From positions 332,860 to 356,859 of the forward strand of contig MTMA02000006.1 in NCBI GenBank assembly GCA_002011075.2: DNA of 24,000 nt. Direction: 5' to 3'. How positions within the stretch are numbered: the stretch's first letter is position 1; every line of letters begins with the position of its first letter. The stretch comes from Candidatus Scotarchaeum otlingeri (GTDB lineage: Archaea > Thermoproteota > Nitrososphaeria > Geothermarchaeales > JDFR-13). Positions 1,430 to 12,253 of this stretch are shown here, one piece after another. The notes under the pieces were generated by a model. It searched no databases. It saw only the letters and a program-made list of their open reading frames with translations, and had not been told where the DNA came from. Made by a program: the position numbers and the translations under genes.

Positions 1430-1885
1430 TTGCTGATAACATTAATACATAATTCATATAGTTCAGTTAAGCTCGTCGATGCAGCCAGAGTATGTCTGCT
1501 ATTCGATTCGGATCTTATTGTTATATCTAAAGCTACAAGCTCTGCTGCCCAGACCGGTGTCCCAGAAGTGGAGAAGTTGGCCTTTAAAAGGGGCGGTAAG
1601 GTCTTATATGTACCGGACCTGATAGATGCCATTGAATTATTGGGTCCCGATAAGTTCTATATGGTCGTACCCAAGAGGTTGGGGAAGGAGAAACTGGATT
1701 TTAATTTGTTGAAGGAGGAATTGTCTAGTGATCTAAAGGTTATGATCGGTGTTTCAGGCGGTCACACCAGTTTTTCACTAAAAGAATTGGAAAATGGCTA
1801 TCCAGTATACATTGATGATATTGATGAGAACTTATCTCCTTCGGCTGTATTTGCAATAATTCTCTATAGTTTAAAGGTTACATAG
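1430..1885 (+). CDS. Conserved archaeal protein, DUF531/COG4080-like (SPOUT-fold; formerly annotated 'RecB-family nuclease')
   Basis: A 151-aa ORF with a TTG start (a stop lies 3 codons upstream in frame). The pattern ...SKATSSAAQTGVPEVEKLAFKRGGKVLYVPDLIDAIELL... matches my recollection of this archaeal family. The assignment is from memory only. Confidence 0.45.
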   Translation: MLITLIHNSYSSVKLVDAARVCLLFDSDLIVISKATSSAAQTGVPEVEKLAFKRGGKVLYVPDLIDAIELLGPDKFYMVVPKRLGKEKLDFNLLKEELSSDLKVMIGVSGGHTSFSLKELENGYPVYIDDIDENLSPSAVFAIILYSLKVT

Positions 1886-1899
1886 AAATAGTTTACTTG

Positions 1900-2610
1900 A
1901 TGTCTATAACTATATTGCGGTATACAATATTTACTATACTAATGATTATTCCAGCATATCAAGATATCAAAAGTAGATTTATCGATGATAGAATCTGGCT
2001 AGTTCAAGGTGTGATAGGATATCCGCTATTATTGATGGACCAATCCGTTTTATCAGTTGGAATCTATAGATATCTAGCTAACATGATAATGTATACACTT
2101 ATTTTCATAATTATCCACAGATTTTCTATGATTGGCGAGGCGGATATAATAGCATTAATGATGGTTTTCACATTGTTTCCTCTGTCTCCAGTAGGACCTA
2201 AGAGTCTTCACTATGTTCCTTTTAATTATCCACTAAGAATTTTTCTTATGACATTGATATCGGCTCTAATTTATAATATCATGTATAATCTATTGAGCAA
2301 TTATCGTTATTGGGTTCTTAATAACCAGCTCTTTAAAGATGAACTATCCTTTTGCATGAAAGTGATATTATGCTTGATTGCTAGAAAGGAAGTGGCTGCT
2401 AGAATCGATAATATAAAAATCTACTCATTAGAAGTTATAGACTCGGATGGACTTAGACGTATAAGACTTATGCCCTCCATAAAAGATATCAATGATGCAA
2501 TTAAGCCATATAATAATGATGAATATATGTGGACTACCTCAGGTATTCCACTAATCTCATGGCTAACATTAATATTAATATTATATCCCATCATGGAGGT
2601 AATGTTATAA
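1900..2610 (+). CDS. Type IV prepilin / preflagellin peptidase (A24 family, PibD/FlaK-like)
   Basis: Polytopic membrane protein carrying the two aspartyl motifs of TFPP peptidases: PAYQDIKSRFIDD (Asp at about residue 23) and SMIGEADIIALMM (a GxGD-type motif, Asp at about residue 83). ATG is at 1900, and TTG at 1897 is the alternative used in the ORF track. Confidence 0.7.
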   Translation: MSITILRYTIFTILMIIPAYQDIKSRFIDDRIWLVQGVIGYPLLLMDQSVLSVGIYRYLANMIMYTLIFIIIHRFSMIGEADIIALMMVFTLFPLSPVGPKSLHYVPFNYPLRIFLMTLISALIYNIMYNLLSNYRYWVLNNQLFKDELSFCMKVILCLIARKEVAARIDNIKIYSLEVIDSDGLRRIRLMPSIKDINDAIKPYNNDEYMWTTSGIPLISWLTLILILYPIMEVML

Positions 2611-2839: not shown

Positions 2840-4357
2840 ATGATGAATAGAATAATCCTCAAAAATTGTAATATATATACAATGAGTAGCGAGAGACCTA
2901 ATGCAAAGGTATTATGTATAGAGAATGGAGTAATATCATATGTAGGAGAACAGATCCCTTCTAAATTCTCAGGTAAAATCATAGATTTAGGAGGTAGAAC
3001 AGTTCTTCCAGGGTTTATAGATTCACATATGCATTTATCATCTTATGCTCTGATGCAGGTTACTACCGATCTCTCAGGAACCAAATCTATTGAGGAGTTA
3101 AAATACAGACTAAAAGCGGCGAAAAATCAAGATGTACCCTGGATATATGGTAGAGGTTGGGATCATGAAGAATTTAGTGATAAAAGACTGCCTTCTAGAA
3201 AGGATTTAGATGAAGTATCTGTTGATATGCCAATCTTAATAGTACGTAAATGTGGACATGTTGGCATAGTTAATTCGTTAGGTATAAGGAAAATAATCGA
3301 TTTAGGATTGGCAAGAAATAGTAGTAATCAAGCAGAATTAAGTCAGGGGGTTCTATACGAAGAAACCTTATATAGAGTCATAAAACATGTGCATTCTCAA
3401 TTATTGTCACCATCAACATTAAGGAGCGCCATCGAAAATATAGTCAAGAAAGGGATAACCTCTATTCATTGGATGAGTGCCGATACATTTTCGATAAAAA
3501 AATTAGTAGAGGCCTTTAAAGGAAATCTCCCTATTAGGATATTTATCTACCTTAGTTCTGAGCATCTCAGTAAATTTCGTGATATAAAAGCTTCTTATGA
3601 AAATGGAAAGATAAAGATCATTGGAATCAAACTATTTATGGATGGATCCTTTGGTGCAAGAACAGCTGCGCTTAGATCAGGCTATGATGATGAGCCTCAT
3701 AATATGGGCATTCTAAATATGAATGCCGCTGAGCTGATATCTTCAATATTGAGGTGCATCAAATTAGGAGCAAAAATAGCCATTCATATTATTGGAGATA
3801 GAGCATTGGAAATAATGTTAGATGCATTAGAAAGGCTCGATAGATCTATTATAAAGCATATTAGAATAGAGCATTTATCTCTATTACCAGATGACTTATT
3901 TACAAAGATAAAACGCTATTTACCATTAAAGGTTTCTATTCAGCCTAGATTTGTAACATCTGATTTTTGGATAAGAGATCGTCTAGGTAAGAGAGCCAAA
4001 TATACATATAGATTTAACTCTATGAAAAAAATAGGCTTTATAATGGGAATAGGTTCAGATGCACCGGTTGAAGAAATAGATCCTTGGATACATATAATAT
4101 CCGCCATAAACGGCCCATACGTCAATCCTCTTGAAGCAATCGACATTAAGACGGCCATAGAGTTATACACCATTGGAAGTTCAAATCTAATAAACTCTAT
4201 AGGGCTTGGAACCTTAAGAAAGGGATACTATGCGGATTTGATAGTCTTAGATAAAGATCCATTTAGATGCACGCTAGAAGAACTTAGAGATATAAAAGTA
4301 TTAATGACTATGGTTGATGGAGTAATATTATTTGATAGGATTAATGTAAAGAAGTAA
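2840..4357 (+). CDS. Metal-dependent amidohydrolase, YtcJ-like (Amidohydro_3 family)
   Basis: Family motifs are present: VLPGFIDSHMHL, KLFMDGSFGARTAAL, AIHIIGDRA, RIEHLS, GSDAPVEEIDP. The length of 505 aa is typical of the family. Confidence 0.85.
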   Translation: MMNRIILKNCNIYTMSSERPNAKVLCIENGVISYVGEQIPSKFSGKIIDLGGRTVLPGFIDSHMHLSSYALMQVTTDLSGTKSIEELKYRLKAAKNQDVPWIYGRGWDHEEFSDKRLPSRKDLDEVSVDMPILIVRKCGHVGIVNSLGIRKIIDLGLARNSSNQAELSQGVLYEETLYRVIKHVHSQLLSPSTLRSAIENIVKKGITSIHWMSADTFSIKKLVEAFKGNLPIRIFIYLSSEHLSKFRDIKASYENGKIKIIGIKLFMDGSFGARTAALRSGYDDEPHNMGILNMNAAELISSILRCIKLGAKIAIHIIGDRALEIMLDALERLDRSIIKHIRIEHLSLLPDDLFTKIKRYLPLKVSIQPRFVTSDFWIRDRLGKRAKYTYRFNSMKKIGFIMGIGSDAPVEEIDPWIHIISAINGPYVNPLEAIDIKTAIELYTIGSSNLINSIGLGTLRKGYYADLIVLDKDPFRCTLEELRDIKVLMTMVDGVILFDRINVKK

Positions 4358-5434
4358 CTTCGATAAACGATTAATTATTCTCTTTCTCTCGAGATTCGCC
4401 TTTGAGGCTAGTTCATCAAAATAGCTAATCACTTCATCATATACATCTTTATCTATAGGAAATGGTACGCCATCCTTACCTCCTACTGCAAAAGTATACC
4501 TAACAGGATCCCTCTTTGAAGGCTCTACACCATATATTACCTCAGATATTAGGGATAAAGCCCTTATCGTTGACGGACCTATTCCCCGTATACTAATTAA
4601 TTCTTCTAGATTAGAAGGCTGCGTCTCATATGCTTTTTTAATTGCTTTCCAATTAATTCTTGTTGGCATAGCCAAGGTTTTAATCCGGCTACCTGTTTTC
4701 TTCTCAATCCAAAAATTAAGGCCAATATGAGAGTAATACTTCATATTGTCTAGATCCTTTTTGAATCGATCCTTCTCTTTAACAATATCTATTATTACTC
4801 TATTTGTCTCAGAGCTTTCTCTCGATGTCAAATCTATTACCTCCCTATGAGCTAGATCTCCGATCATTCCTGAATGTGGTTCTATAACATAGCTACTTAA
4901 ACTGGATGACGCCCAGTGATACCTCCGTGCATATTTTATGGTCGGGTTCATTCCCTGCTGTATTATGCTCCAATTATTATGTTCATCAAAGAAGATTGTG
5001 TGGTGATAAAGATAATACCCATCTAATAATAGGGTATTATCTACCTTTGCCGCTATCCTACTTGTATAAATAATTTTTTCTTTATCTATAGCATCAATCC
5101 GATGCGAAATCCCCTCGATCTCATCTATCGTGTTACGTGCATGAATTCCCTTTCCCCCTGCTATAAAAATTCCTATATCCTCGTTTCTGCATGCATCCTT
5201 TAAGGCGGATGTAACTACAGTCGTTAGCCCCGATGAATGCCAATCAAACCCTAAAACACACCCTAATGCTTGAAACCATATGGGATCAGCTAATCTATTA
5301 AGTAACTCCTTGACCCCAAAATCCTCTATTATTATATATAAAATTTTCTCTCCAAGGTCCACCATCCTATTATATAACCATTTAGGTACATATCCTGTAT
5401 GCAAAGGCAAATATGCATAACCTGTTCGTCTCAT
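4328..5434 (-). CDS. DUF763 family protein with C-terminal helix-hairpin-helix
   Basis: MRRTGYAYLPLHTGYVPKWLYNRMVDLG matches the conserved DUF763 N-terminus. An HhH-like segment, LISIRGIGPSTIRALSLISEVIYG, lies near the C-terminus. The longest ORF extends to 5557 but would overlap the divergent pilin start, so I prefer the ATG at 5434. Confidence 0.65.
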   Translation of the reverse strand: MRRTGYAYLPLHTGYVPKWLYNRMVDLGEKILYIIIEDFGVKELLNRLADPIWFQALGCVLGFDWHSSGLTTVVTSALKDACRNEDIGIFIAGGKGIHARNTIDEIEGISHRIDAIDKEKIIYTSRIAAKVDNTLLLDGYYLYHHTIFFDEHNNWSIIQQGMNPTIKYARRYHWASSSLSSYVIEPHSGMIGDLAHREVIDLTSRESSETNRVIIDIVKEKDRFKKDLDNMKYYSHIGLNFWIEKKTGSRIKTLAMPTRINWKAIKKAYETQPSNLEELISIRGIGPSTIRALSLISEVIYGVEPSKRDPVRYTFAVGGKDGVPFPIDKDVYDEVISYFDELASKANLERKRIINRLSKLLLYINPIK

Positions 5435-5518
5435 CACTCCATATAGAGTAAAAACCTTGGCATTATAAGTATTAAATAATTCCTCTGGCGGTCGCTTCTC
5501 TATTCTTTTAAACAGCTG

Positions 5519-5527
5519 AAATATAAA
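5519..5527 (+). promoter_or_regulatory. Putative TATA box of the pilus operon (leaderless or short-leader transcript)
   Basis: AAATATAAA is centred about 25 nt upstream of the ATG at 5548. This matches crenarchaeal TATA-to-TSS spacing. Confidence 0.3.
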
Positions 5528-5547
5528 GGAGGGTTGAGGCGTAAAAT

Positions 5548-5985
5548 ATGAGTCCATATATCAATAGATATTTTAATAAAAGAAAAGGCGTATCAGTATT
5601 TTTGCAAATCGTTATTCTGGTGATAATCGTTTTAGCCTTAGGTGTCATGGTATATAGCGGAGCCTCCGGGCTGATGAATAACTGGTTTACCAATAGACAA
5701 ATCAATGTATTAGGAGCGTTCACGATCGGCTCTAACATAATAGTAAATGCCAAAAACGCAGGTAACATACCGGTTACAATAGAATCAATTGAAATACTTG
5801 ATATGAATGGAGTAATTATAGCAAACACCTCGGCAGACTTGCCACTAACATTACAACCCGGTGATGCAGCTAAAATTACCCTAACCATAGACCCTGCAGC
5901 CACAATATCCCAAGGCGACATAGTAGACATCTATATCTACATTGAGAATGGAGAAATATTCAAAGTAAGGCTCTCTCTTCAATGA
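5548..5985 (+). CDS. Archaeal type IV pilin-like protein (class III signal peptide)
   Basis: The N-terminus MSPYINRYFNKRKG|VSVFLQIVILVIIVLALGVMVY has a basic region, Lys-Gly at -2/-1, and then a hydrophobic helix. This is the PibD/FlaK cleavage-site pattern. A small beta-rich C-terminal domain follows. Confidence 0.75.
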   Translation: MSPYINRYFNKRKGVSVFLQIVILVIIVLALGVMVYSGASGLMNNWFTNRQINVLGAFTIGSNIIVNAKNAGNIPVTIESIEILDMNGVIIANTSADLPLTLQPGDAAKITLTIDPAATISQGDIVDIYIYIENGEIFKVRLSLQ

Positions 5986-6001
5986 AGGGTGATAGACTAA
6001 G

Positions 6002-6436
6002 GTGAAAGCTGTCACCCCACTAATAGCCACATCAATACTAATACTCATAGTTATATCTCTAATCTCACTATTAATGTACCAAACCCCATCATTAGTAAAT
6101 ACCGAAGTTAGCAGCTTATCAAGTCAATACCTAGAGTTATCCACAAACAACGGAGTACATATAGAATTCATAGCACATGCGATCAATGGATCCTCTCACT
6201 ATATATATTTATATAATTACGGCTGGACACCAGCGATTATAAGCAACATATATATAAACGATTCACTTGAGATAAATGATTTCACCATCTTTGTTGATAC
6301 CATAGAAAATGAGGCCTCTACATTAGAACCAAAGAAAATTTCAATTATAAAAATCAATTATACTGGAAGCATGAACTCTATAACCCTAATTCTAAACCAT
6401 ATAATTAAACTCAGGTGGATTATTAATGAATCGTAG
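6002..6436 (+). CDS. Archaeal type IV pilin-like protein (class III signal peptide)
   Basis: GTG start. The N-terminus MKA|VTPLIATSILILIVISLISLL resembles the conserved archaeal pilin/archaellin N-terminal motif (xSPVIATVLLIAI-like). A beta-rich domain follows (YIYLYNYGWTPAIISNIYIND). Confidence 0.7.
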   Translation: MKAVTPLIATSILILIVISLISLLMYQTPSLVNTEVSSLSSQYLELSTNNGVHIEFIAHAINGSSHYIYLYNYGWTPAIISNIYINDSLEINDFTIFVDTIENEASTLEPKKISIIKINYTGSMNSITLILNHIIKLRWIINES

Positions 6437-8543
6437 AAAAGGAGTGTCAAATCTCGTCGCATTTGTATTGATACTAATAATTGCTATCAGCATAATGAGT
6501 AGCTATATATACCTAGACTTTGCTAGAAACAGATATTTCTCCTCTATAGAAAAGTCTGTTGAACTTCTAGGCTCACGAAGTAAAGAAAGTATCGTTCTTA
6601 TAATCGATGAAAATAACCCACAAAGAATTATTATAGAGAGTCGCTGGACAAATAGCTCTACAATAAAATATTTGATCACCCTAGATAGTAATAATAAAAT
6701 AGAAACGATTCCCCTAAATATGGCGTTACCTCCACTAGAAAAGATTAGTGTTAACCTAAAAGAACCTTATAATACTTATAAATCTATATATATCGTAACT
6801 TCTTTGGGAAACGTATATAATCCATCTTTAAATTCATCTGCAATGAGAACTAATAATCTCGTATCAGACAAAAAAATTTTCTCATTAAACTATCTAACTG
6901 GCATCGATGCTAATGAAATTAAGATACTGGGTCATAACACTGCCGCCCTTAAGATAACTGACCTCTCAGGAGCTAAACAATTATTTATTTTCAACATGAT
7001 AGATGGCCAAATAATAAGTATAAATCATTTTTCATCCAGTAACGGCCGTATCCGAATTTATGCCAATTCTATATACTTCGAGAATGAAATAAATTATGTA
7101 GACATTAACGGAGAATTATTTATGCTCGATAATCCTATATCTGCTGTTTGCTATATTGGGAAAAAATATATTATCGTTAGGGGACTTGACTATGCATATA
7201 TAATCCATGACAACACAACAATCAGAAAAATACAGTTTTTGTATCGAAATATCGAGTGTATTTTTAGAGATAAAGATATAATATTATATTCCCGTGGAAC
7301 TGCAAAGTTATCGAGCACGCGACTATATGCATATCATATATATAGGATTTATGACGGTCGTGTTTTATGGAATAAAGTGATAATATACCCATTTGAATCA
7401 TGGGACATCTCATATATCTCATCATTCACCCCTGGATCCAAAATAATAATATCTAATAGATGGACAACACCACTTTCATATCCTATTTTCGGCTCTGCAA
7501 TTATAGATGACTCTGAAGCCGCAGTAAAATCATATTTGGGGATTCCATCTATCATGCCTAATACAGCATGGGGAAATATAAGCGACGATGATCTTACCGA
7601 TTCACTATATTATGGTAATATTACATTTAACGTAAATAATGGTGAATACCCTATCGTAATCAAGCCCTATGGTGGAGGAATAATTCATAATACTACAGAT
7701 GCATTAGAAAAATATCATCTTTACATCGAAATAGATATCGGATACAAGTTTCCTGAACCAATTTATATAATGTTTTATGCAAAGCTCTTCTACGAATATT
7801 ATGCTCTTCGAATAATTAGATTCTATAACTTAACAAACAATTCTTACATGCTAAATGCATCGATCATCAAGTTTTCTAACGGATTCGAGGAAAAAATTAG
7901 CCAAGATATATATCTTACTAGTAAGATTTCATTAACACGCATATGGATAGATGGCGAAGTAATTAATAATAATCTTATTATTAGGGCGATATTGAAAGCC
8001 ACAGACACAAATATCTATAGCTCAATAAATGAACATACCGGCTTTATAACATTATCAGTAGGAGAATTGCCTATCGGAAGAGGTGAGGGTATAAAAGTAG
8101 ATTCGCTATATAAAGGAAAACTTAAAGTCAAGAAGTTCATCAGTTACTGGAATACGGATATTATTTTTATTCCTATCAGCGAAGAAGAAGTAATATTAGT
8201 CAATAATATATTTATATCTTTCAAAGAGCCCTTCCGGGGATTAATCGGCTATGATGAAAGAGCAGTATACCTATTATCTTTCTCTGTGGCTACTATTTTC
8301 GATCCTATTAAGCTAGACCTAAACAGGTGGCTAACTGGTGAAAATCCCATACTTAAAGACGAAAAATCTATTATTTTACGGTTAGGACTATACAGGAGTG
8401 ACGGATTCAATTTGTATTTTGAGAAGAACTTATTCGATAATAACACACTTCTTTTAGGACTACCCACATATGCAGCAATTGACAATAACATTTTCTGGCT
8501 CATTTATCGACTTCCTAATCAGATATATATCGATAATGGGTGA
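6426..8543 (+). CDS. Large (705 aa) pilin-like / pilus-associated secreted protein with class III signal peptide
   Basis: The N-terminus MNRRKG|VSNLVAFVLILIIAISIM shares the RKGVS cleavage context with the first pilin. The rest is Asn/Tyr/Ile-rich with many N-x-S/T sequons, and I recognise no known domain. It overlaps the preceding gene by 11 nt and the next by 4 nt. Confidence 0.65.
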   Translation: MNRRKGVSNLVAFVLILIIAISIMSSYIYLDFARNRYFSSIEKSVELLGSRSKESIVLIIDENNPQRIIIESRWTNSSTIKYLITLDSNNKIETIPLNMALPPLEKISVNLKEPYNTYKSIYIVTSLGNVYNPSLNSSAMRTNNLVSDKKIFSLNYLTGIDANEIKILGHNTAALKITDLSGAKQLFIFNMIDGQIISINHFSSSNGRIRIYANSIYFENEINYVDINGELFMLDNPISAVCYIGKKYIIVRGLDYAYIIHDNTTIRKIQFLYRNIECIFRDKDIILYSRGTAKLSSTRLYAYHIYRIYDGRVLWNKVIIYPFESWDISYISSFTPGSKIIISNRWTTPLSYPIFGSAIIDDSEAAVKSYLGIPSIMPNTAWGNISDDDLTDSLYYGNITFNVNNGEYPIVIKPYGGGIIHNTTDALEKYHLYIEIDIGYKFPEPIYIMFYAKLFYEYYALRIIRFYNLTNNSYMLNASIIKFSNGFEEKISQDIYLTSKISLTRIWIDGEVINNNLIIRAILKATDTNIYSSINEHTGFITLSVGELPIGRGEGIKVDSLYKGKLKVKKFISYWNTDIIFIPISEEEVILVNNIFISFKEPFRGLIGYDERAVYLLSFSVATIFDPIKLDLNRWLTGENPILKDEKSIILRLGLYRSDGFNLYFEKNLFDNNTLLLGLPTYAAIDNNIFWLIYRLPNQIYIDNG

Positions 8544-10012
8544 GTACGGTGAATACCGATAACCTCGAATTGATTGAGAGGTACGAAGTACATAGTAAGT
8601 GGCAAGTTAATAATGGGAATCAATATAATTTAAGAGCAAACATCGAGATATACGATTCATACGATTCCATGTATTATATCGTAAATGAACCCTTTTCATA
8701 TGATATCCAAAATAGAATAAGAGAAATTATATCGAAACTAGAGCGTTATATAGAATATAATAATAGTTATATAGAAGATCCTGTGCGATACCTGCTAAAT
8801 CTCTATAACAAGATGTATAAAGGAAGTGATAATTATGAAGAACTTAGAGAAGCCTTTAAATATTATGTAATTAAAGAAAGGGTGAGCTATGGGATTCTTT
8901 CATTTCCTCTTTCAGATATAAATGTAGAAGATATCTCATGCATAGGACCCGAAAATCGTATTAAGGTATGGCATAAGAAATACAATTACAAAGGATGGTT
9001 ATCGACGAATATCATGTTTAATCAGGAGGAGCTAGATAGAACAATAAGAAAATTGGCATATAGAACTGGAAAGTCAATCAGCATATTAAGGCCTACATTG
9101 GAATCCGTTCTTCCAGAAGGTTTCCGTTTAACAGCTACTTGGAGGAAAGAAATCTCGCCCTTGGGAAGCAGTTTTACTATTAGAAAATTTCGGTCCGAGC
9201 CATATACAATGACAGAATTAATCAACTATGGTACTATCGACACATTTACGGCTGCTTATCTTTGGATGATGACAGAACTCAAAAAATTTATCGTTATCAT
9301 AGGACCTTCAAGTACTGGGAAAACAACTCTTGTAAATGCATTAGCATACCTTGTACCACCAAACTCTAAAATAGTAACCATAGAAGACATTAGAGAACTA
9401 AATTTATCTTATCACAATAATTGGAAGCCTCTAACTACCCGTCCATTACATAACGACGATACTATAAATATATTCGACTTGGTAAAGCTTTCTCTTCGGG
9501 AAAGGGCGGATTTACTCATATTAGGCGAGTCAAGAGGTGAAGAAGCCCGTCTGATATGCCAAGCAGCGGCTACTGGGCACGGATGTCTAACAACATTTCA
9601 CGCTGAAACTATTAGTGGATTATTGGCTAGACTAAGAAGTTACCCCATTAACGTAGATGATAGTATGTTACTCCTAATCGATACGGTTGTAATTATGCAA
9701 AGAGAAAACAATAGAACAAGAAGGATTTATAAAGTGGCTGAGAATCACAATCTGAAGTGGGAAACGATCTCAAAATATATCGGCAATGGAAAATGGATAC
9801 ATTATTCTGATAATATTAAAAACATCTGTGGGTCGAATGATAATATAAATAATATTCACATGCTAATGCACGAGTTAGATAAAAGAAGGAAATTTCTACA
9901 TTATCTCGTGAAACTAAAGATACTTTCACCACTGGAATTTTCTTATAGAATCAAAATGTTCTACGCCGGAGTGTATAAATATGAAAATGGTAGATGGATC
10001 CTTAAAGCATAA
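8540..10012 (+). CDS. Type IV pilus assembly ATPase (FlaI/VirB11/PilB superfamily)
   Basis: Walker A GPSSTGKTTLVNAL, Walker B/Asp-box region ADLLILGESRGEEA, His box LTTFHAE, and the FlaI-like N-terminal motif YYIVNEP. The GTG start overlaps the upstream TGA stop (GTGA). Confidence 0.85.
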   Translation: MSTVNTDNLELIERYEVHSKWQVNNGNQYNLRANIEIYDSYDSMYYIVNEPFSYDIQNRIREIISKLERYIEYNNSYIEDPVRYLLNLYNKMYKGSDNYEELREAFKYYVIKERVSYGILSFPLSDINVEDISCIGPENRIKVWHKKYNYKGWLSTNIMFNQEELDRTIRKLAYRTGKSISILRPTLESVLPEGFRLTATWRKEISPLGSSFTIRKFRSEPYTMTELINYGTIDTFTAAYLWMMTELKKFIVIIGPSSTGKTTLVNALAYLVPPNSKIVTIEDIRELNLSYHNNWKPLTTRPLHNDDTINIFDLVKLSLRERADLLILGESRGEEARLICQAAATGHGCLTTFHAETISGLLARLRSYPINVDDSMLLLIDTVVIMQRENNRTRRIYKVAENHNLKWETISKYIGNGKWIHYSDNIKNICGSNDNINNIHMLMHELDKRRKFLHYLVKLKILSPLEFSYRIKMFYAGVYKYENGRWILKA

Positions 10013-11690
10013 ACTCTATACATATGGCAATAGGATAACCACCCGTTTCATAAATAAACTTGATGAACTGTATATTAAGCATAGTCAAGGCCCCATAATG
10101 TTCTTAATTAAAGTTCTAGTAAAATTTATCTCAATGGATCCTACTAAAGCGAGACTAAGATATAAGAAGACTCGACTCGCATTTATAATGCTATTGTTCT
10201 ATTTAATAATACCTCCTACGTTTATCTCTTTTTTGTATTTTATTCTAGAAGGCCTGAAATCCCTATACTTCGCAATATCCATAGTTCTGCTGAGCTGCCT
10301 TCTACCGATCCTATTCATAAATCTATTTATAGGAATCAAGATATACGAGAGTAAAAGAGGAATAGAGCGTGAAATATTATTCTTCAATCTCATAGTGTGT
10401 ATATATTCAGGGCTAAATAGGCTAGAAAGTGGTTTTAAGGTTATAGCAAACGAATTGAATGATATTCTAAAATTTATATCAAAAGAGATAAAGGGATGGT
10501 TAATCTATTCTCGTATACATAATGAGGATATTGATTATTCAGCTTCTAAGATGATAAAAACTGCTCCATCCGAAAAATTCTCCGCACTAATCAATCAATA
10601 TATCGAGTTCAAATATACCGGCGGCGATGTTAATAGGCTCTTCAATGATAAATTATACCAAATCATAAACGAAATTAAAGCCACATGGAGATATAGGCTA
10701 AATAACATATCTTCTTACATTGAAATACTTCTTATAATATATGGCTTAGTGCCGATATTATTCTCAATGTTATCTTTTATATTTGATATTAGTGTTTTGC
10801 ATAAATTTGTTTATATAATGGCGATTCTATTCATCTCTATCGGTCTAATAATCTATATTATATTGGACAACTACCAGTTTTTTATACCCGACCTCTCTTT
10901 ATATGTAACTCCTAAACATGTTACTTATATTCTAATTATGGAGCTAGTATTGGTTATATTCCTAATATTCACTACCAAGATTAACATATATGCTTTCTAT
11001 TCTGCGGTTCCACTAACTGTTTTTATTCCTCTCTCGATAATCGGTTACGTCACAAAAAAGGGGGTTAGTGAGGAAGAATCGGATCTATCAATATTTATGG
11101 ACTCAGCAGAGGAATGGCTTAGGCATGGATATACAATAGAAGATATAATTAATCGAGTTGATGTGACTAATTATAAATATCGGTTTAGAACAATAATACT
11201 GAAATTAAAAGAACTTCTAAACTTAGGATTTGATCCACGCGAAGCTATAAAGCAGCTGCCGATCTTATCGGGTGTGGTATATCTCTCATTTAGAATTATA
11301 GGGGAGATTATGGAAGTGGGCGGTGGACTAAATGAAGTAACTAAGCTAAGAACGGTCCTAGATGAATATATCTTCCTGAAAAAGAAAAGTTATGAAGCAT
11401 CCATGCTTCCACTAATAGTATCCGGGTTCCTACCTATCGTTGGATTATTTGGAATATCAGTTAACAGCGGACTTATATCGATGATTGCAACAGCTTCAAT
11501 ATATACACTAGGATTAAGCCCTGTAGCACTAAGATTCATAATTGATAGCAGCATATTTCTTCTAATAATGGGTGCATTAATATCATCTATACTTGTAGCT
11601 AAAATGGTAAATGGTACCGTACGATATCCTCAATATGCATTAGTACCACTAATATCAACAGTTATTGGAACACTAATAATACCTCTGTAG
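9981..11690 (+). CDS. Type IV pilus platform membrane protein (FlaJ/TadC family)
   Basis: A 569-aa polytopic membrane protein placed immediately after the ATPase and overlapping it by 32 nt. It has two blocks of TM helices separated by soluble helical domains, as in FlaJ/TadC/UpsF-type proteins. Confidence 0.7.
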   Translation: MKMVDGSLKHKLYTYGNRITTRFINKLDELYIKHSQGPIMFLIKVLVKFISMDPTKARLRYKKTRLAFIMLLFYLIIPPTFISFLYFILEGLKSLYFAISIVLLSCLLPILFINLFIGIKIYESKRGIEREILFFNLIVCIYSGLNRLESGFKVIANELNDILKFISKEIKGWLIYSRIHNEDIDYSASKMIKTAPSEKFSALINQYIEFKYTGGDVNRLFNDKLYQIINEIKATWRYRLNNISSYIEILLIIYGLVPILFSMLSFIFDISVLHKFVYIMAILFISIGLIIYIILDNYQFFIPDLSLYVTPKHVTYILIMELVLVIFLIFTTKINIYAFYSAVPLTVFIPLSIIGYVTKKGVSEEESDLSIFMDSAEEWLRHGYTIEDIINRVDVTNYKYRFRTIILKLKELLNLGFDPREAIKQLPILSGVVYLSFRIIGEIMEVGGGLNEVTKLRTVLDEYIFLKKKSYEASMLPLIVSGFLPIVGLFGISVNSGLISMIATASIYTLGLSPVALRFIIDSSIFLLIMGALISSILVAKMVNGTVRYPQYALVPLISTVIGTLIIPL

Positions 11691-11705: not shown

Positions 11706-12164
11706 GTGAAGGGAAGTTACGTCCTATTATTATGGATAGATAAAGACAGAAAAATTAAGTTCGGAAAAAACCACAATGCATATTTCAAAGAAGGAATATA
11801 TGCATATGTAGGGTCAGCATTAAATAACTTATATAAACGTCTAAATAGACATTTTACCTATAGAAAAAAACTGAGGTGGCATATAGACTACATTATTCCA
11901 TATTCAAAAATACTGGGAGCCATAGTAATTGAATCCCCTGAAAAACTAGAGAGCATAATAGCCAATCACCTGGCCCTATACTATGAATATATACCTAAAT
12001 TCGGCGCAACAGATACCAACGATCCAAGTCACCTATTTTATATAGGTAAATCATATGATGCATTATTTGATTATATATACGAATTGAAGGACAAACATTC
12101 CATCATGAAAATTTTCTGGATCGTTAATCCAAAAAATAATCTTGGTGCGGCCGGGGGGATTTGA
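11706..12164 (+). CDS. DUF123 / GIY-YIG (Uri) superfamily endonuclease-like protein
   Basis: GIYAYVGSALNNLYKRLNRHFTYRKKLRWHIDYI matches the DUF123 signature (GxYxYVGSA...RxxRH...WHIDY). GTG start. The last ~19 nt of the ORF read through the 3' end of the opposite-strand tRNA. Confidence 0.75.
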   Translation: MKGSYVLLLWIDKDRKIKFGKNHNAYFKEGIYAYVGSALNNLYKRLNRHFTYRKKLRWHIDYIIPYSKILGAIVIESPEKLESIIANHLALYYEYIPKFGATDTNDPSHLFYIGKSYDALFDYIYELKDKHSIMKIFWIVNPKNNLGAAGGI

Positions 12165-12253
12165 ACCCCCGATCCCCGGCTCTCCACTCAGTGAATCCGC
12201 AGGCCGGTGCCTATAGGAAACCCTCTTTTTTATCCTGGCTGGGCCACGGCCGC
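12146..12253 (-). tRNA. tRNA-Arg (anticodon GCG) with a 15-nt canonical intron and a probable ~19-nt second insertion in the D-arm. Genomically encoded CCA at 12143-12145.
   Basis: The reverse complement reads GCGGCCG-TG-GCCC-AGCCAGGAT[AAAAAAGAGGGTTTCCTAT]AGGC-A-CCGGC-CTGCGG[ATTCACTGAGTGGAG]A-GCCGG-GGATC-GGGGG-TTCAAAT-CCCCC-CGGCCGC-A-CCA. Acceptor stem (7 bp), anticodon stem (5 bp) and T arm are all perfect. Removing 15 + 19 nt from the 108-nt gene gives a 74-nt mature tRNA. Confidence 0.8.

What the first reader, a model, noticed from the sequence alone, without database searches (positions are those of the whole stretch)
5548..11690. Compact, unclassified archaeal type IV pilus-like operon (2 pilins, giant pilin-like protein, ATPase, platform)
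Five co-directional genes are tightly packed: an 11-nt overlap at 6426/6436, a GTGA start/stop overlap at 8540-8543, and a 32-nt overlap at 9981/10012. Three products begin with a class III (prepilin-type) signal: ...NKRKG|VSVFLQIVILVIIVLAL, MKA|VTPLIATSILILIV and MNRRKG|VSNLVAFVLILIIAI. A FlaI/VirB11-type ATPase follows (GPSSTGKTT, LILGESRGEEA, TTFHAE), then a 569-aa FlaJ/TadC-like membrane protein. No FlaH/KaiC-like or FlaX/FlaCDE genes are present, so it is not an archaellum. No substrate-binding proteins are nearby, which argues against a bindosome. The order large protein, ATPase, platform recalls UpsX-UpsE-UpsF of the Sulfolobales UV-inducible DNA-exchange pilus, but here the pilins lie upstream rather than downstream and I cannot establish orthology by eye. 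The operon also looks more AT-rich than the flanking aaRS genes, though this was judged by eye and not computed. It is the best candidate in the window for an uncharacterised surface-filament system (adhesion, aggregation or DNA exchange).
Basis: partly seen in the sequence, partly recalled or inferred. Interest (0 to 1): 0.7.

Follow-up and report, generated by a model that had tools for sequence, protein, structure and literature searches.

The report
Ups/Bas-related archaeal type IV pilus operon
This is a real gene cluster for a type IV pilus in an uncultured subsurface archaeon, a distant relative of the Sulfolobus Ups and bindosome systems, so it is a new member of a known kind and not a new machine.

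Summary
Five tightly packed co-directional genes (5548-11690) encode two small prepilins, a 705-aa prepilin-like protein, a FlaI/VirB11-type ATPase and a polytopic platform protein. They are the only three ORFs in the window with a class III signal.

A prepilin peptidase (PibD) gene lies 3 kb upstream. A sixth co-directional gene (DUF123, GIY-YIG-like) starts 15 nt after the platform gene.

The system can be classified. Curated HMMs give UpsA, UpsB and UpsF as best hits for pilin 1, pilin 2 and the platform. The family of the large protein's N-terminal domain matches the bindosome pilin BasB. All scores are far below the orthologue cut-offs.

The same gene order sits in a conserved block of about 20 kb in 8 or more related lineages (Geothermarchaeota / Nitrososphaeria MAGs). 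The ATPase groups with related loci of Nitrososphaerales (NJ bootstrap 100/100). [quoted passage not shown]

The large protein is a pilin fused to a fast-evolving, orphan, all-beta domain of about 570 aa. It is most likely a filament-displayed adhesin and shows no sign of being a UpsX equivalent. The AT-richness is 2.3 points, absent at third codon positions, and gives no sign of horizontal transfer.

Most likely function: an adhesion or aggregation pilus. Interest is modest.

The parts
1897..2610 (+). Prepilin (class III signal) peptidase, PibD/FlaK type. It is the predicted processing enzyme for the three prepilins.
   Evidence: Pfam Peptidase_A24 4.2e-08, 34 bits against a cut-off of 26.5. 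It is also called in the public contig. The same position is kept in L002 and L005, but not in more distant relatives.
5498..5547 (+). Putative operon promoter and leader. A/T-rich TATA-like elements lie at about 5506-5512 and 5519-5527, and an SD-like GGAGG/GAGG lies at 5528-5539. The region sits in the 113-nt divergent intergenic space between DUF763 and pilin 1.
   Evidence: Read directly from the sequence. Orthologous loci show a TATA-like element about 35-50 nt and a GGAGG/GGTG about 7-12 nt upstream of the pilin-1 start. This is inferred, not demonstrated.
5548..5985 (+). Prepilin 1 (145 aa), UpsA/BasC-like. Predicted major pilin.
   Evidence: Class III signal KRKG|VSVF. NCBIfam UpsA 5.8e-11 across the whole model, and 11/11 homologues hit UpsA. 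PDB 8fk7 pilin scores 6.8e-4 by sequence. The AF2 model (pLDDT 70) is a helix plus a 7-strand sandwich, and its Foldseek top hits are solved archaeal T4 pilins (8q30, 8fk7, 6w8x, 6nav).
6002..6436 (+). Prepilin 2 (144 aa, GTG start with an SD-like GGGTGA upstream), UpsB/BasA-like. Predicted second pilin.
   Evidence: Class III signal MKA|VTPLIATS. NCBIfam UpsB 6.4e-08 and BasA 7.6e-4. Of 10 homologues, 7 hit UpsB and 3 hit BasA. The YLYNYG motif is conserved.
6426..8543 (+). Giant prepilin-like protein (705 aa). It has an N-terminal BasB-like pilin domain (about 1-135) and a lineage-specific, all-beta extension of about 570 aa. Predicted filament-displayed adhesin or minor pilin.
   Evidence: Class III signal RRKG|VSNL. 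Orthologues of 679-767 aa occupy the same position in 8 or more lineages at only 15-30% identity. The profile matches the 398-aa X protein of L088 (hhalign 95.8%, E 7.8e-9), which itself hits BasB at 1.9e-9. Of 22 N-domain family members, 13 hit BasB. Only 17 hits were found in 1.84 billion representative proteins, and none covers the C-terminal half outside the lineage. The AF2 model is poor (pLDDT 41): a helix plus sandwich, then beta strands.
8540..10012 (+). Assembly ATPase of the FlaI/VirB11/TadA superfamily (490 aa).
   Evidence: Pfam T2SSE 1.8e-26. NCBIfam FlaI 253 bits (cut-off 550) matches the core only. BasE scores 204 bits (cut-off 1000) and the match includes the N-domain. PDB 2oap scores 250 bits and S. 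acidocaldarius FlaI 190 bits. Walker A, Walker B and the His box are read from the sequence. NJ tree.
9981..11690 (+). Polytopic membrane platform protein (569 aa), UpsF/TadC/FlaJ type.
   Evidence: Eight hydrophobic peaks. NCBIfam UpsF 1.2e-15 over model positions 16-413 of 484 is the only hit. All 13 homologues hit UpsF (best 3.6e-82), 4 hit BasF and 2 hit FlaJ. Pfam T2SSF is only 0.042.
11706..12164 (+). DUF123 protein (152 aa), a GIY-YIG-like predicted nuclease. It is possibly a co-transcribed sixth gene, and its membership in the system is uncertain.
   Evidence: Pfam DUF123 4.2e-22 and GIY-YIG 0.0027. It starts 15 nt after the platform stop here and overlaps the platform stop by 4 nt in L007 and L008. 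It is present in L002, L005, L007, L008 and L096, and absent in L013, L014 and L098.

Best explanation
The locus encodes a complete, chromosomally inherited archaeal type IV pilus (type IV filament) system. It belongs to the lineage that also gave rise to the Sulfolobales Ups pilus and bindosome (Makarova subclade 4I-like). Its host is an uncultured Geothermarchaeota / Nitrososphaeria-related archaeon.

Proposed mechanism:
- The nearby PibD peptidase cleaves the class III signal peptides of three substrates after the G/A at position -1.
- The hexameric ATPase, docked on the polytopic platform protein, extracts the mature pilins from the membrane. It polymerises pilin 1 (UpsA-like) and pilin 2 (UpsB-like) into a filament through their N-terminal hydrophobic helices.
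- The 705-aa protein enters the same filament through its BasB-like pilin domain, most likely at the tip or as a minor subunit. It displays a rapidly diverging all-beta domain of about 570 aa that mediates attachment to surfaces or to other cells.

Shown here: gene content, signal motifs, family relationships, the pilin fold of pilin 1, conservation and synteny. Inferred: filament formation, the placement of the large protein in the filament, and adhesion or aggregation as the function.
For: - All four core components of an archaeal type IV filament system are present.
- Pilin 1 has the archaeal T4 pilin fold, and its best structural matches are solved pili.
- Curated-HMM best hits are consistent. 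They are UpsA, UpsB and UpsF for the window proteins and for 11/11, 7/10 and 13/13 homologues. BasB matches 13/22 members of the large protein's N-domain family.
- The five-gene order pilin-pilin-large prepilin-ATPase-platform is conserved in 8 or more lineages. It lies inside a syntenic block of about 20 kb that runs from ArgRS through LysRS and ProRS to ribosomal protein S26e.
- In the NJ tree, the family is monophyletic in 100/100 bootstraps. It is sister to Nitrososphaerales loci in 100/100. Together with Desulfurococcales loci, whose platforms are the most UpsF-like, it is split from all other ATPases sampled in 97/100.
- There is a gradient of divergence against L002 / L007: LysRS 71/69%, ATPase 52/47%, pilin 1 47/37%, platform 36/21%, large protein 28%/undetectable, pilin 2 25%/undetectable. 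This fits exposed, fast-evolving surface parts.
- Other proteins that share the same N-terminal pilin module carry the adhesin-type domains DUF2341 and Flg_new_2.
Against: - There is no experimental or expression evidence.
- Every curated Ups, Bas and FlaI cut-off is missed by a wide margin, so a function cannot be transferred by orthology.
- The structure model of the large protein is unreliable (pLDDT 41). The beta-propeller-like matches have TM-scores of only 0.1-0.2, so the 'adhesin' label rests on architecture and evolutionary rate.
- The window's own large protein does not reach the BasB model. The link is transitive, through its family.
- No Sulfolobales UpsE, UpsX, BasE or AapE sequences could be obtained, so placement relative to those references is indirect.
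Confidence: 0.6

Rival explanations
1. Bindosome-like system. The three pilin-like proteins form a short envelope-embedded pseudopilus. It anchors class-III-signal solute-binding proteins, or the 705-aa protein itself as a binding module, for nutrient scavenging, as BasABC-EF does in Saccharolobus.
For: The system has three pilin-like proteins, as in BasABC. Pilin 2 hits BasA at 7.6e-4, and 3/10 homologues hit BasA. The large protein's N-domain family hits BasB in 13/22 members. One pilin-1 homologue hits BasC. The BasE model aligns over nearly the whole ATPase, including the N-domain. Bindosome binding proteins are normally encoded elsewhere in the genome, so their absence from the window is uninformative.
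Against: The Ups models score better than the Bas models for pilin 1, pilin 2 and the platform. The window's platform does not hit BasF at all. The C-terminal 570 aa matches no solute-binding family. No ABC transporter or SBP is present in 24 kb.
Confidence: 0.17
2. A true functional equivalent of the Ups system: a stress-induced pilus that drives species-specific aggregation followed by DNA exchange, with neighbouring nucleases processing the DNA.
For: UpsA, UpsB and UpsF are the best curated matches. The gene order A-B-X-E-F is a circular permutation of upsX-E-F-A-B. A GIY-YIG-like DUF123 gene is probably co-transcribed. A RecB-family DUF2122 gene, a C5 DNA methylase gene and a DUF763 gene (sub-threshold HhH match, E 0.043) are conserved neighbours. 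A related Desulfurococcales locus abuts an Lhr-type helicase gene. Ups loci are reported to neighbour a helicase, an endonuclease and a glycosyltransferase. The fast-evolving surface parts would fit species-specific recognition.
Against: Scores are far below the Ups equivalog cut-offs. The protein at the 'X' position is a prepilin, unlike UpsX as described in 2013. DUF123 is missing in some lineages that keep the operon. The neighbours belong to a long housekeeping synteny block, so adjacency may mean nothing. No Ced genes were seen in the window. UV is irrelevant in a subseafloor aquifer.
Confidence: 0.1
3. A horizontally acquired or mobile AT-rich surface-structure island.
For: GC is slightly lower, 33.4% against 35.7%.
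Against: GC3 equals that of the flanking genes. The locus sits in the same place between DUF763 and LysRS in 8 or more lineages, with divergence that tracks the housekeeping genes. No integrase, repeats or tRNA-flanked borders were seen.
Confidence: 0.02
4. A degenerate archaellum.
For: FlaI is the top NCBIfam hit for the ATPase, at 253 bits.
Against: The score is below the cut-off of 550 and covers only the conserved core. No archaellin, FlaH, FlaG/F or FlaX was found, and there is no FlaJ hit for the platform. The pilins are 145 aa and UpsA/UpsB-like.
Confidence: 0.01

Closest known systems
Ups (UV-inducible pilus) system of Sulfolobales, upsX-E-F-A-B; Makarova subclade 4I
   Same: It has two small pilins that are the best curated matches for pilin 1 (UpsA) and pilin 2 (UpsB), and a platform whose only curated match is UpsF. 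It also has five genes, with a protein of about 700 aa directly upstream of the ATPase.
   Different: All scores are far below the equivalog cut-offs: 42.7/130, 32.7/70 and 57/400. The pilin pair lies upstream here, not downstream. The large protein here is a PibD-type prepilin, whereas UpsX was described as cytoplasmic. The host is not a Sulfolobales member. Nothing is known about regulation.
Bindosome assembly system BasABC-BasE-BasF of Saccharolobus solfataricus (subclade 4I)
   Same: It has three pilin-like proteins plus an ATPase and a platform. Matches to BasA (pilin 2), BasB (the N-domain family of the large protein) and BasC (a pilin-1 homologue) are seen. BasE aligns over the ATPase, including its N-domain.
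   Different: The third pilin carries an orphan extension of about 570 aa. The window's platform gives no BasF hit. BasE scores 204 against a cut-off of 1000. No class-III-signal binding proteins or ABC transporter lie in the window.
[quoted passage not shown] 2020), and the thaumarchaeal clade 4A/4I loci with an extra adhesin or S-layer-like protein (Makarova et al. 2016)
   Same: The ATPase is sister to Nitrososphaerales loci (bootstrap 100/100). Those loci carry the same parts list: platform, UpsA-like and UpsB-like pilins, sometimes a large prepilin (829 aa in L016), and PibD nearby. This is the kind to which the finding belongs.
   Different: The gene order differs. Nitrososphaerales have platform-pilins-ATPase, and the window has pilins-large prepilin-ATPase-platform. 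ATPase identity is only about 39%. The host is a thermophilic, non-ammonia-oxidising subsurface lineage. It is uncharacterised either way.
Pilin-anchored adhesins of type IV filaments (bacterial PilY1/minor-pilin tip complexes; archaeal DUF2341 proteins)
   Same: It has an N-terminal pilin module followed by a large beta-rich domain. Relatives of the module are fused to DUF2341 and Flg_new_2. Low-confidence beta-propeller-like fold matches were found.
   Different: There is no detectable sequence homology to PilY1 or DUF2341 in the window protein. The structure model is too poor to assign a fold.

Membership tests
Archaeal type IV filament (T4P-like) system | Filament subunits with a class III signal peptide ([KR][GA] cleavage site followed by a hydrophobic helix) | tested here: met
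   Three ORFs pass the filter, and they are the only ones in the window to do so. The motif is conserved in orthologues. Pilin 1 has the pilin fold. FlaFind itself was not run.
Archaeal type IV filament (T4P-like) system | FlaI/VirB11-family secretion ATPase | tested here: met
   Pfam T2SSE 1.8e-26, 93 bits against a cut-off of 24.9. PDB 2oap scores 4.6e-73.
Archaeal type IV filament (T4P-like) system | Polytopic TadC/FlaJ-type platform protein encoded next to the ATPase | tested here: met
   UpsF HMM 1.2e-15 over 400 positions, with 13/13 homologues hitting it. There are 8 hydrophobic peaks. Pfam T2SSF is sub-threshold at 0.042.
Archaeal type IV filament (T4P-like) system | Class III signal peptidase (PibD/FlaK) | tested here: met
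   Peptidase_A24 scores 34 bits against a cut-off of 26.5 at 1897-2610.
Ups system (Sulfolobales) | UpsA, UpsB and UpsF orthologues (NCBIfam equivalog cut-offs) | tested here: not met
   These are the best hits but far below cut-off: UpsA 42.7/130, UpsB 32.7/70, UpsF 57.3/400.
Ups system (Sulfolobales) | UpsX (arCOG05986), a protein of about 79 kDa without a class III signal, encoded upstream of upsE | tested here: inconclusive
   A 705-aa protein sits upstream of the ATPase, but it is a prepilin with a BasB-like N-domain family. UpsX has been described as cytoplasmic, as a membrane protein and as multi-Ig-fold. No UpsX sequence could be obtained for a direct comparison.
Ups system (Sulfolobales) | Operon order upsX-E-F-A-B | tested here: not met
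   The order here is A-like, B-like, large protein, ATPase, platform. The reference order is given.
Ups system (Sulfolobales) | Induction by UV or DNA damage, and a role in aggregation and DNA exchange | not testable with these tools
   No expression or genetic data exist for this uncultured organism.
Bindosome (Bas) system | BasE and BasF orthologues | tested here: not met
   BasE scores 203.8 bits against a cut-off of 1000. The window's platform gives no BasF hit. Only 4/13 homologues hit BasF.
Bindosome (Bas) system | Three small pilins BasA, BasB and BasC | tested here: inconclusive
   Pilin 2 hits BasA at 7.6e-4. The large protein's N-domain family hits BasB in 13/22 members, but the window's copy does not. 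All hits are below cut-off. The third 'pilin' is 705 aa, not about 130 aa.
Bindosome (Bas) system | Solute-binding proteins with class III signals that depend on the system | not testable with these tools
   None lies in the 24-kb window.
Archaellum | Archaellins, FlaH (KaiC-like), FlaG/F, FlaJ, and FlaI at equivalog level | tested here: not met
   No such Pfam or NCBIfam hits were found in the window. FlaI scores 253 against a cut-off of 550 and matches the core only. The platform gives no FlaJ hit.
Thaumarchaeal Ups/Bas-related pilus (Abby 2020; Makarova 2016 thaumarchaeal 4A/4I loci) | The ATPase clusters with Nitrososphaeria non-archaellum ATPases, and the locus holds a UpsF-like platform, PilA-type pilins and an extra large secreted protein | tested here: met
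   NJ bootstrap is 100/100 for the window family plus the Nitrososphaerales loci. The component sets are shared. The published trees themselves could not be reproduced with reference sequences.

The most novel reading that the evidence does not exclude
The locus is a surviving 'ancestral-type' Ups/Bas system. It would have two UpsA/UpsB-like pilins, a BasB-like pilin fused to a recognition domain, and a co-transcribed GIY-YIG-like nuclease. It would mediate species-specific cell-cell aggregation and DNA exchange in a deep-subsurface Geothermarchaeota-related archaeon. Pilus-mediated DNA exchange would then predate, and extend well beyond, the Sulfolobales.
Probability: 0.1. Interest if true: 0.65.

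Novelty: new member of a known kind. Interest (0 to 1): 0.3.

Why it matters
Archaeal type IV filaments are numerous, and few have been characterised. This locus is a clean, compact and strongly conserved example from a lineage with no cultured members. That lineage is related to Geothermarchaeota, and the exact proteins also occur in a Juan de Fuca crustal-fluid metagenome.

The locus links the two pilins of Ups and the three pilins of the bindosome in one gene set. It therefore bears on how subclade 4I systems diversified. Its giant, fast-evolving prepilin is also a candidate for how cells in this habitat recognise surfaces or partners.

It does not reveal a new kind of machine, so its value is mainly comparative.

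Tried and rejected
(1) Reference Sulfolobales sequences (UpsE, UpsX, BasE, AapE) for a direct phylogeny and a UpsX comparison.
- An exact search for a published S. acidocaldarius upsE qPCR primer in metagenome contigs found nothing.
- A platform-alignment scan of metagenomes gave 8 loci, none recognisable as Sulfolobales.
- The UpsX alignment in the 2013 paper's supplement is an image.

(2) Structure of the 705-aa protein.
- The 2-sequence model has pLDDT 41.
- The afdb50 library was unavailable.
- Foldseek against the PDB gave only beta-propeller matches with TM-scores of 0.1-0.2, plus the pilin 8fk7 for the N-domain. I treat this as a hint only.

(3) Naming the organism. Cluster look-ups returned no organism names. 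Taxonomy is inferred from synteny and from 59-71% LysRS identity to Geothermarchaeota / Nitrososphaeria MAGs.

(4) The horizontal-transfer or AT-island idea was rejected.

(5) The archaellum reading was rejected.

(6) The sigma-70 promoter and intrinsic terminator scan gave no more sites than shuffled sequence, and it does not apply to archaea.

(7) PDB sequence searches for DUF123 and DUF763 gave nothing, and a literature search for DUF123 with GIY-YIG found no paper.

Full report
**Observation**

The 11-nt, GTGA and 32-nt overlaps are real.

I ran a simple class III signal filter on every six-frame ORF of 50 aa or more in the 24-kb window. The filter asks for [KR][GA], a permitted +1/+2 residue, and then 20 or more uncharged, mostly hydrophobic residues. 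It returned exactly the three reported proteins and nothing else.

Two relevant genes were missed:
- A Peptidase_A24 prepilin peptidase (PibD type) lies at 1897-2610 (34 bits, cut-off 26.5).
- A sixth co-directional gene lies at 11706-12164, 15 nt after the platform stop. It is DUF123 with a weak GIY-YIG match.

The ORF listing extends the divergent DUF763 gene to 5557. The public gene calls use a 368-aa product, which leaves a 113-nt divergent intergenic region. That region has A/T-rich TATA-like elements and an SD-like GGAGG before pilin 1. Comparable elements occur in the orthologous loci.

**Composition**

The operon is 33.4% GC against 35.7% for the rest of the window. Third-codon-position GC is the same as in the neighbours (0.29-0.36 against 0.27-0.40), so the small difference reflects the Ile/Asn/Tyr/Phe-rich proteins and not foreign DNA.

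**What the parts are**

- The ATPase is a FlaI/VirB11/TadA-family secretion ATPase. Pfam T2SSE scores 1.8e-26. PDB A. fulgidus GspE 2oap scores 250 bits and S. acidocaldarius FlaI 190 bits.
- Among curated NCBIfam models, FlaI (253 bits, cut-off 550) matches only the conserved core of the ATPase (residues 100-404).
- The bindosome ATPase BasE model (204 bits, cut-off 1000) aligns from residue 29 and so includes the N-terminal domain.
- The platform has eight hydrophobic peaks and two large loops. Its only curated hit is UpsF (1.2e-15, 57 bits, cut-off 400).
- Pilin 1 hits UpsA over the whole model (5.8e-11).
- Pilin 2 hits UpsB (6.4e-8) and BasA (7.6e-4).
- Pilin 1 also matches by sequence the solved Pyrobaculum calidifontis T4 pilin 8fk7.
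- A single-sequence AlphaFold model of pilin 1 (pLDDT 70) shows a long N-terminal helix and a seven-stranded sandwich.
- The best Foldseek matches of that model are the S. acidocaldarius Aap, P. calidifontis, S. solfataricus and S. islandicus pili.

**Relatives and context**

- The exact proteins occur on a Juan de Fuca crustal-fluid assembly (SRR3732688) and on a 1.68-Mb NCBI contig.
- The nearest ATPases are only 52-53% identical.
- In those contigs the whole neighbourhood is conserved. The gene order is: ArgRS, C5 DNA methylase, DUF2122 (RecB-family nuclease), [PibD], DUF763 (- strand), pilin 1, pilin 2, a large prepilin (679-767 aa), ATPase, platform, [DUF123], LysRS, DUF4443, ProRS, Carb_kinase, DUF72, an ECF S-component, DUF4430 and ribosomal protein S26e.
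- The same block is found in MAGs labelled Candidatus Geothermarchaeota or Nitrososphaeria (L007, L008, L013, L015), in L014 (labelled Thermoprotei), and in the unlabelled contigs L096-L099.
- LysRS is 59-71% identical to these relatives.
- The host is therefore a member of that lineage, and the operon is vertically inherited core chromosome.

The operon's proteins diverge much faster than the housekeeping genes. Identities to L002 / L007 are:

| Protein | L002 | L007 |
|---|---|---|
| LysRS | 71% | 69% |
| ATPase | 52% | 47% |
| Pilin 1 | 47% | 37% |
| Platform | 36% | 21% |
| Large protein | 28% | undetectable |
| Pilin 2 | 25% | undetectable |

**Classification**

I ran the NCBIfam library over sets of homologues:
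- All 13 platforms have UpsF as best hit. The highest scores, 243-277 bits, are in Thermoprotei/Desulfurococcales MAGs. Four also hit BasF, and only two hit FlaJ.
- All 11 pilin-1 homologues hit UpsA.
- Seven of 10 pilin-2 homologues hit UpsB, and three hit BasA.

I built an NJ tree of 89 ATPases over 385 columns:
- The window's family is monophyletic (100/100).
- It is sister to a group of Nitrososphaerales loci (100/100). Those loci carry a platform, UpsA-like and UpsB-like pilins, sometimes a large prepilin (829 aa in L016), and PibD nearby.
- Together with the Desulfurococcales group, it is split from all other sampled ATPases (Archaeoglobi, DPANN, other Nitrososphaera ATPases) in 97/100 replicates.

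This fits the literature:
- Makarova et al. 2016 place Ups and the bindosome in subclade 4I. [quoted passage not shown]
- Abby et al. [quoted passage not shown]
- A 2026 preprint restricts its MacSyFinder subsystem 4I to Sulfolobales. The relatives described here are evidently too divergent for strict models.

I could not obtain Sulfolobales reference sequences. Placement relative to UpsE, BasE and AapE is therefore indirect.

**The 705-aa protein**

- A profile search of 1.84 billion representative proteins found only 17 hits. Three are full length, from the same three lineages. Two or three cover residues 1-390. The rest match only the N-terminal 130-145 residues.
- One exception among the 17 (P0151, 3822 aa) matches in repeated short stretches and looks like a compositional artefact.
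- The seven orthologues align well only over the signal peptide and the first 130 or so residues, at 15-27% identity overall.
- The family profile matches the 398-aa prepilin in the same position of a Desulfurococcales-like locus (L088; hhalign 95.8%, E 7.8e-9). That protein hits the bindosome pilin BasB (1.9e-9).
- Overall, 13 of 22 members of this N-domain family hit BasB, although the window's own copy does not.
- Two other members of the family carry the adhesin-type domains DUF2341 and Flg_new_2.
- The AlphaFold model is poor (pLDDT 41). It shows a helix plus sandwich at the N-terminus and then beta strands.
- Foldseek returns the pilin 8fk7 for the N-domain. For the rest it returns only beta-propeller matches with TM-scores of 0.1-0.2.
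- UpsX was described as a predicted cytoplasmic protein without recognisable domains. Later descriptions call it a membrane protein and a protein of several Ig folds.
- The large protein here is a prepilin, so I find no support for the UpsX analogy. It cannot be excluded without the UpsX sequence.
- The gene order here (A-like, B-like, large protein, ATPase, platform) is a circular permutation of upsX-E-F-A-B.

**Mechanism**

The best-supported model has three steps:
- PibD processes the three prepilins.
- The ATPase and platform polymerise the UpsA-like and UpsB-like pilins into a filament.
- The large protein joins through its pilin module, at the tip or as a minor subunit, and displays a rapidly evolving beta-rich domain for attachment or cell-cell recognition.

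The parts list, signal motifs, pilin fold, homologies and conservation are shown. Filament formation, the location of the large protein and the function are inferred.

The main rival is a bindosome-like role. It is supported by the Bas-like pilin triad, and the absence of nearby binding-protein genes does not exclude it.

A Ups-like role in DNA exchange is the most interesting reading. The evidence for it is circumstantial:
- A probably co-transcribed GIY-YIG-like DUF123 gene lies downstream. It overlaps the platform stop by 4 nt in L007 and L008 but is missing in L013, L014 and L098.
- Nuclease and methylase genes are conserved neighbours.
- A helicase gene lies next to the related L088 locus.

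Against this, the neighbours belong to a long housekeeping synteny block.

**Verdict**

This is a genuine, complete and well-conserved type IV pilus operon from an uncultured lineage. It is best filed as a divergent member of the Ups/Bas-related pili already noted in Thaumarchaeota. It is not an orthologue of any characterised system. It is useful for comparative work on 4I-type systems and pilin-fused adhesins, and it is not a new kind of machine.

Noticed in passing
window 1430-2610: The PibD-type prepilin peptidase gene (1897-2610) starts 11 nt after a DUF2122 'RecB-family nuclease' gene (1430-1885). PibD is only about 24% identical to its counterparts in L002 and L005. It is absent from this position in the more distant syntenic loci (L007, L008, L013, L015, L096, L098).
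   Followed up: partly
window 11706-12164: A DUF123 (GIY-YIG-like) gene starts 15 nt after the platform gene. In L007 and L008 it overlaps the platform stop codon by 4 nt, which suggests co-transcription. It is missing in L013, L014 and L098. Its function is unknown, and PDB and literature searches gave nothing.
   Followed up: partly
window 12146-12253 (- strand): Rfam finds a tRNA (45.3 bits) that spans 108 nt, so it probably contains an intron. ARAGORN missed it. It overlaps the last 19 nt or so of the DUF123 ORF on the opposite strand.
   Followed up: no
window 2840-4357: The Amidohydro_3 gene between PibD and DUF763 is absent from the otherwise syntenic loci L002, L005, L096 and L098. It looks like a lineage-specific insertion into the conserved block.
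   Followed up: no
window 1-24000; L002, L007, L013, L096, L098: A gene order of about 20 kb is conserved across lineages whose LysRS is only 59-71% identical. It runs ArgRS, C5 methylase, DUF2122, DUF763, pilus operon, LysRS, DUF4443, ProRS, Carb_kinase, DUF72, ECF S-component, DUF4430, S26e. This is unusually stable synteny for archaea at that distance.
   Followed up: partly
window 4328-5557 and 5508-5930 (- strand): the ORF listing extends DUF763 to a 409-aa ORF that overlaps the pilin-1 start. Public gene calls use 368 aa (start near 5434). The 140-aa antisense ORF at 5508-5930 lies inside pilin 1 and is probably spurious.
   Followed up: partly
L088 8697-12929 (- strand): In a Desulfurococcales-like metagenome contig, the related pilus locus has the most UpsF-like platform (277 bits). 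It abuts a 1410-aa Lhr-type ATP-dependent helicase that contains an intein. This recalls the helicase reported next to Sulfolobales ups operons.
   Followed up: no
P0151 (hit to big705 profile positions 367-407): A 3822-aa protein with 25 chitin-binding Peritrophin-A repeats matched a short stretch of the 705-aa protein's profile in 22 places (E 1.4e-15). This is probably a compositional or repeat artefact and not homology.
   Followed up: no
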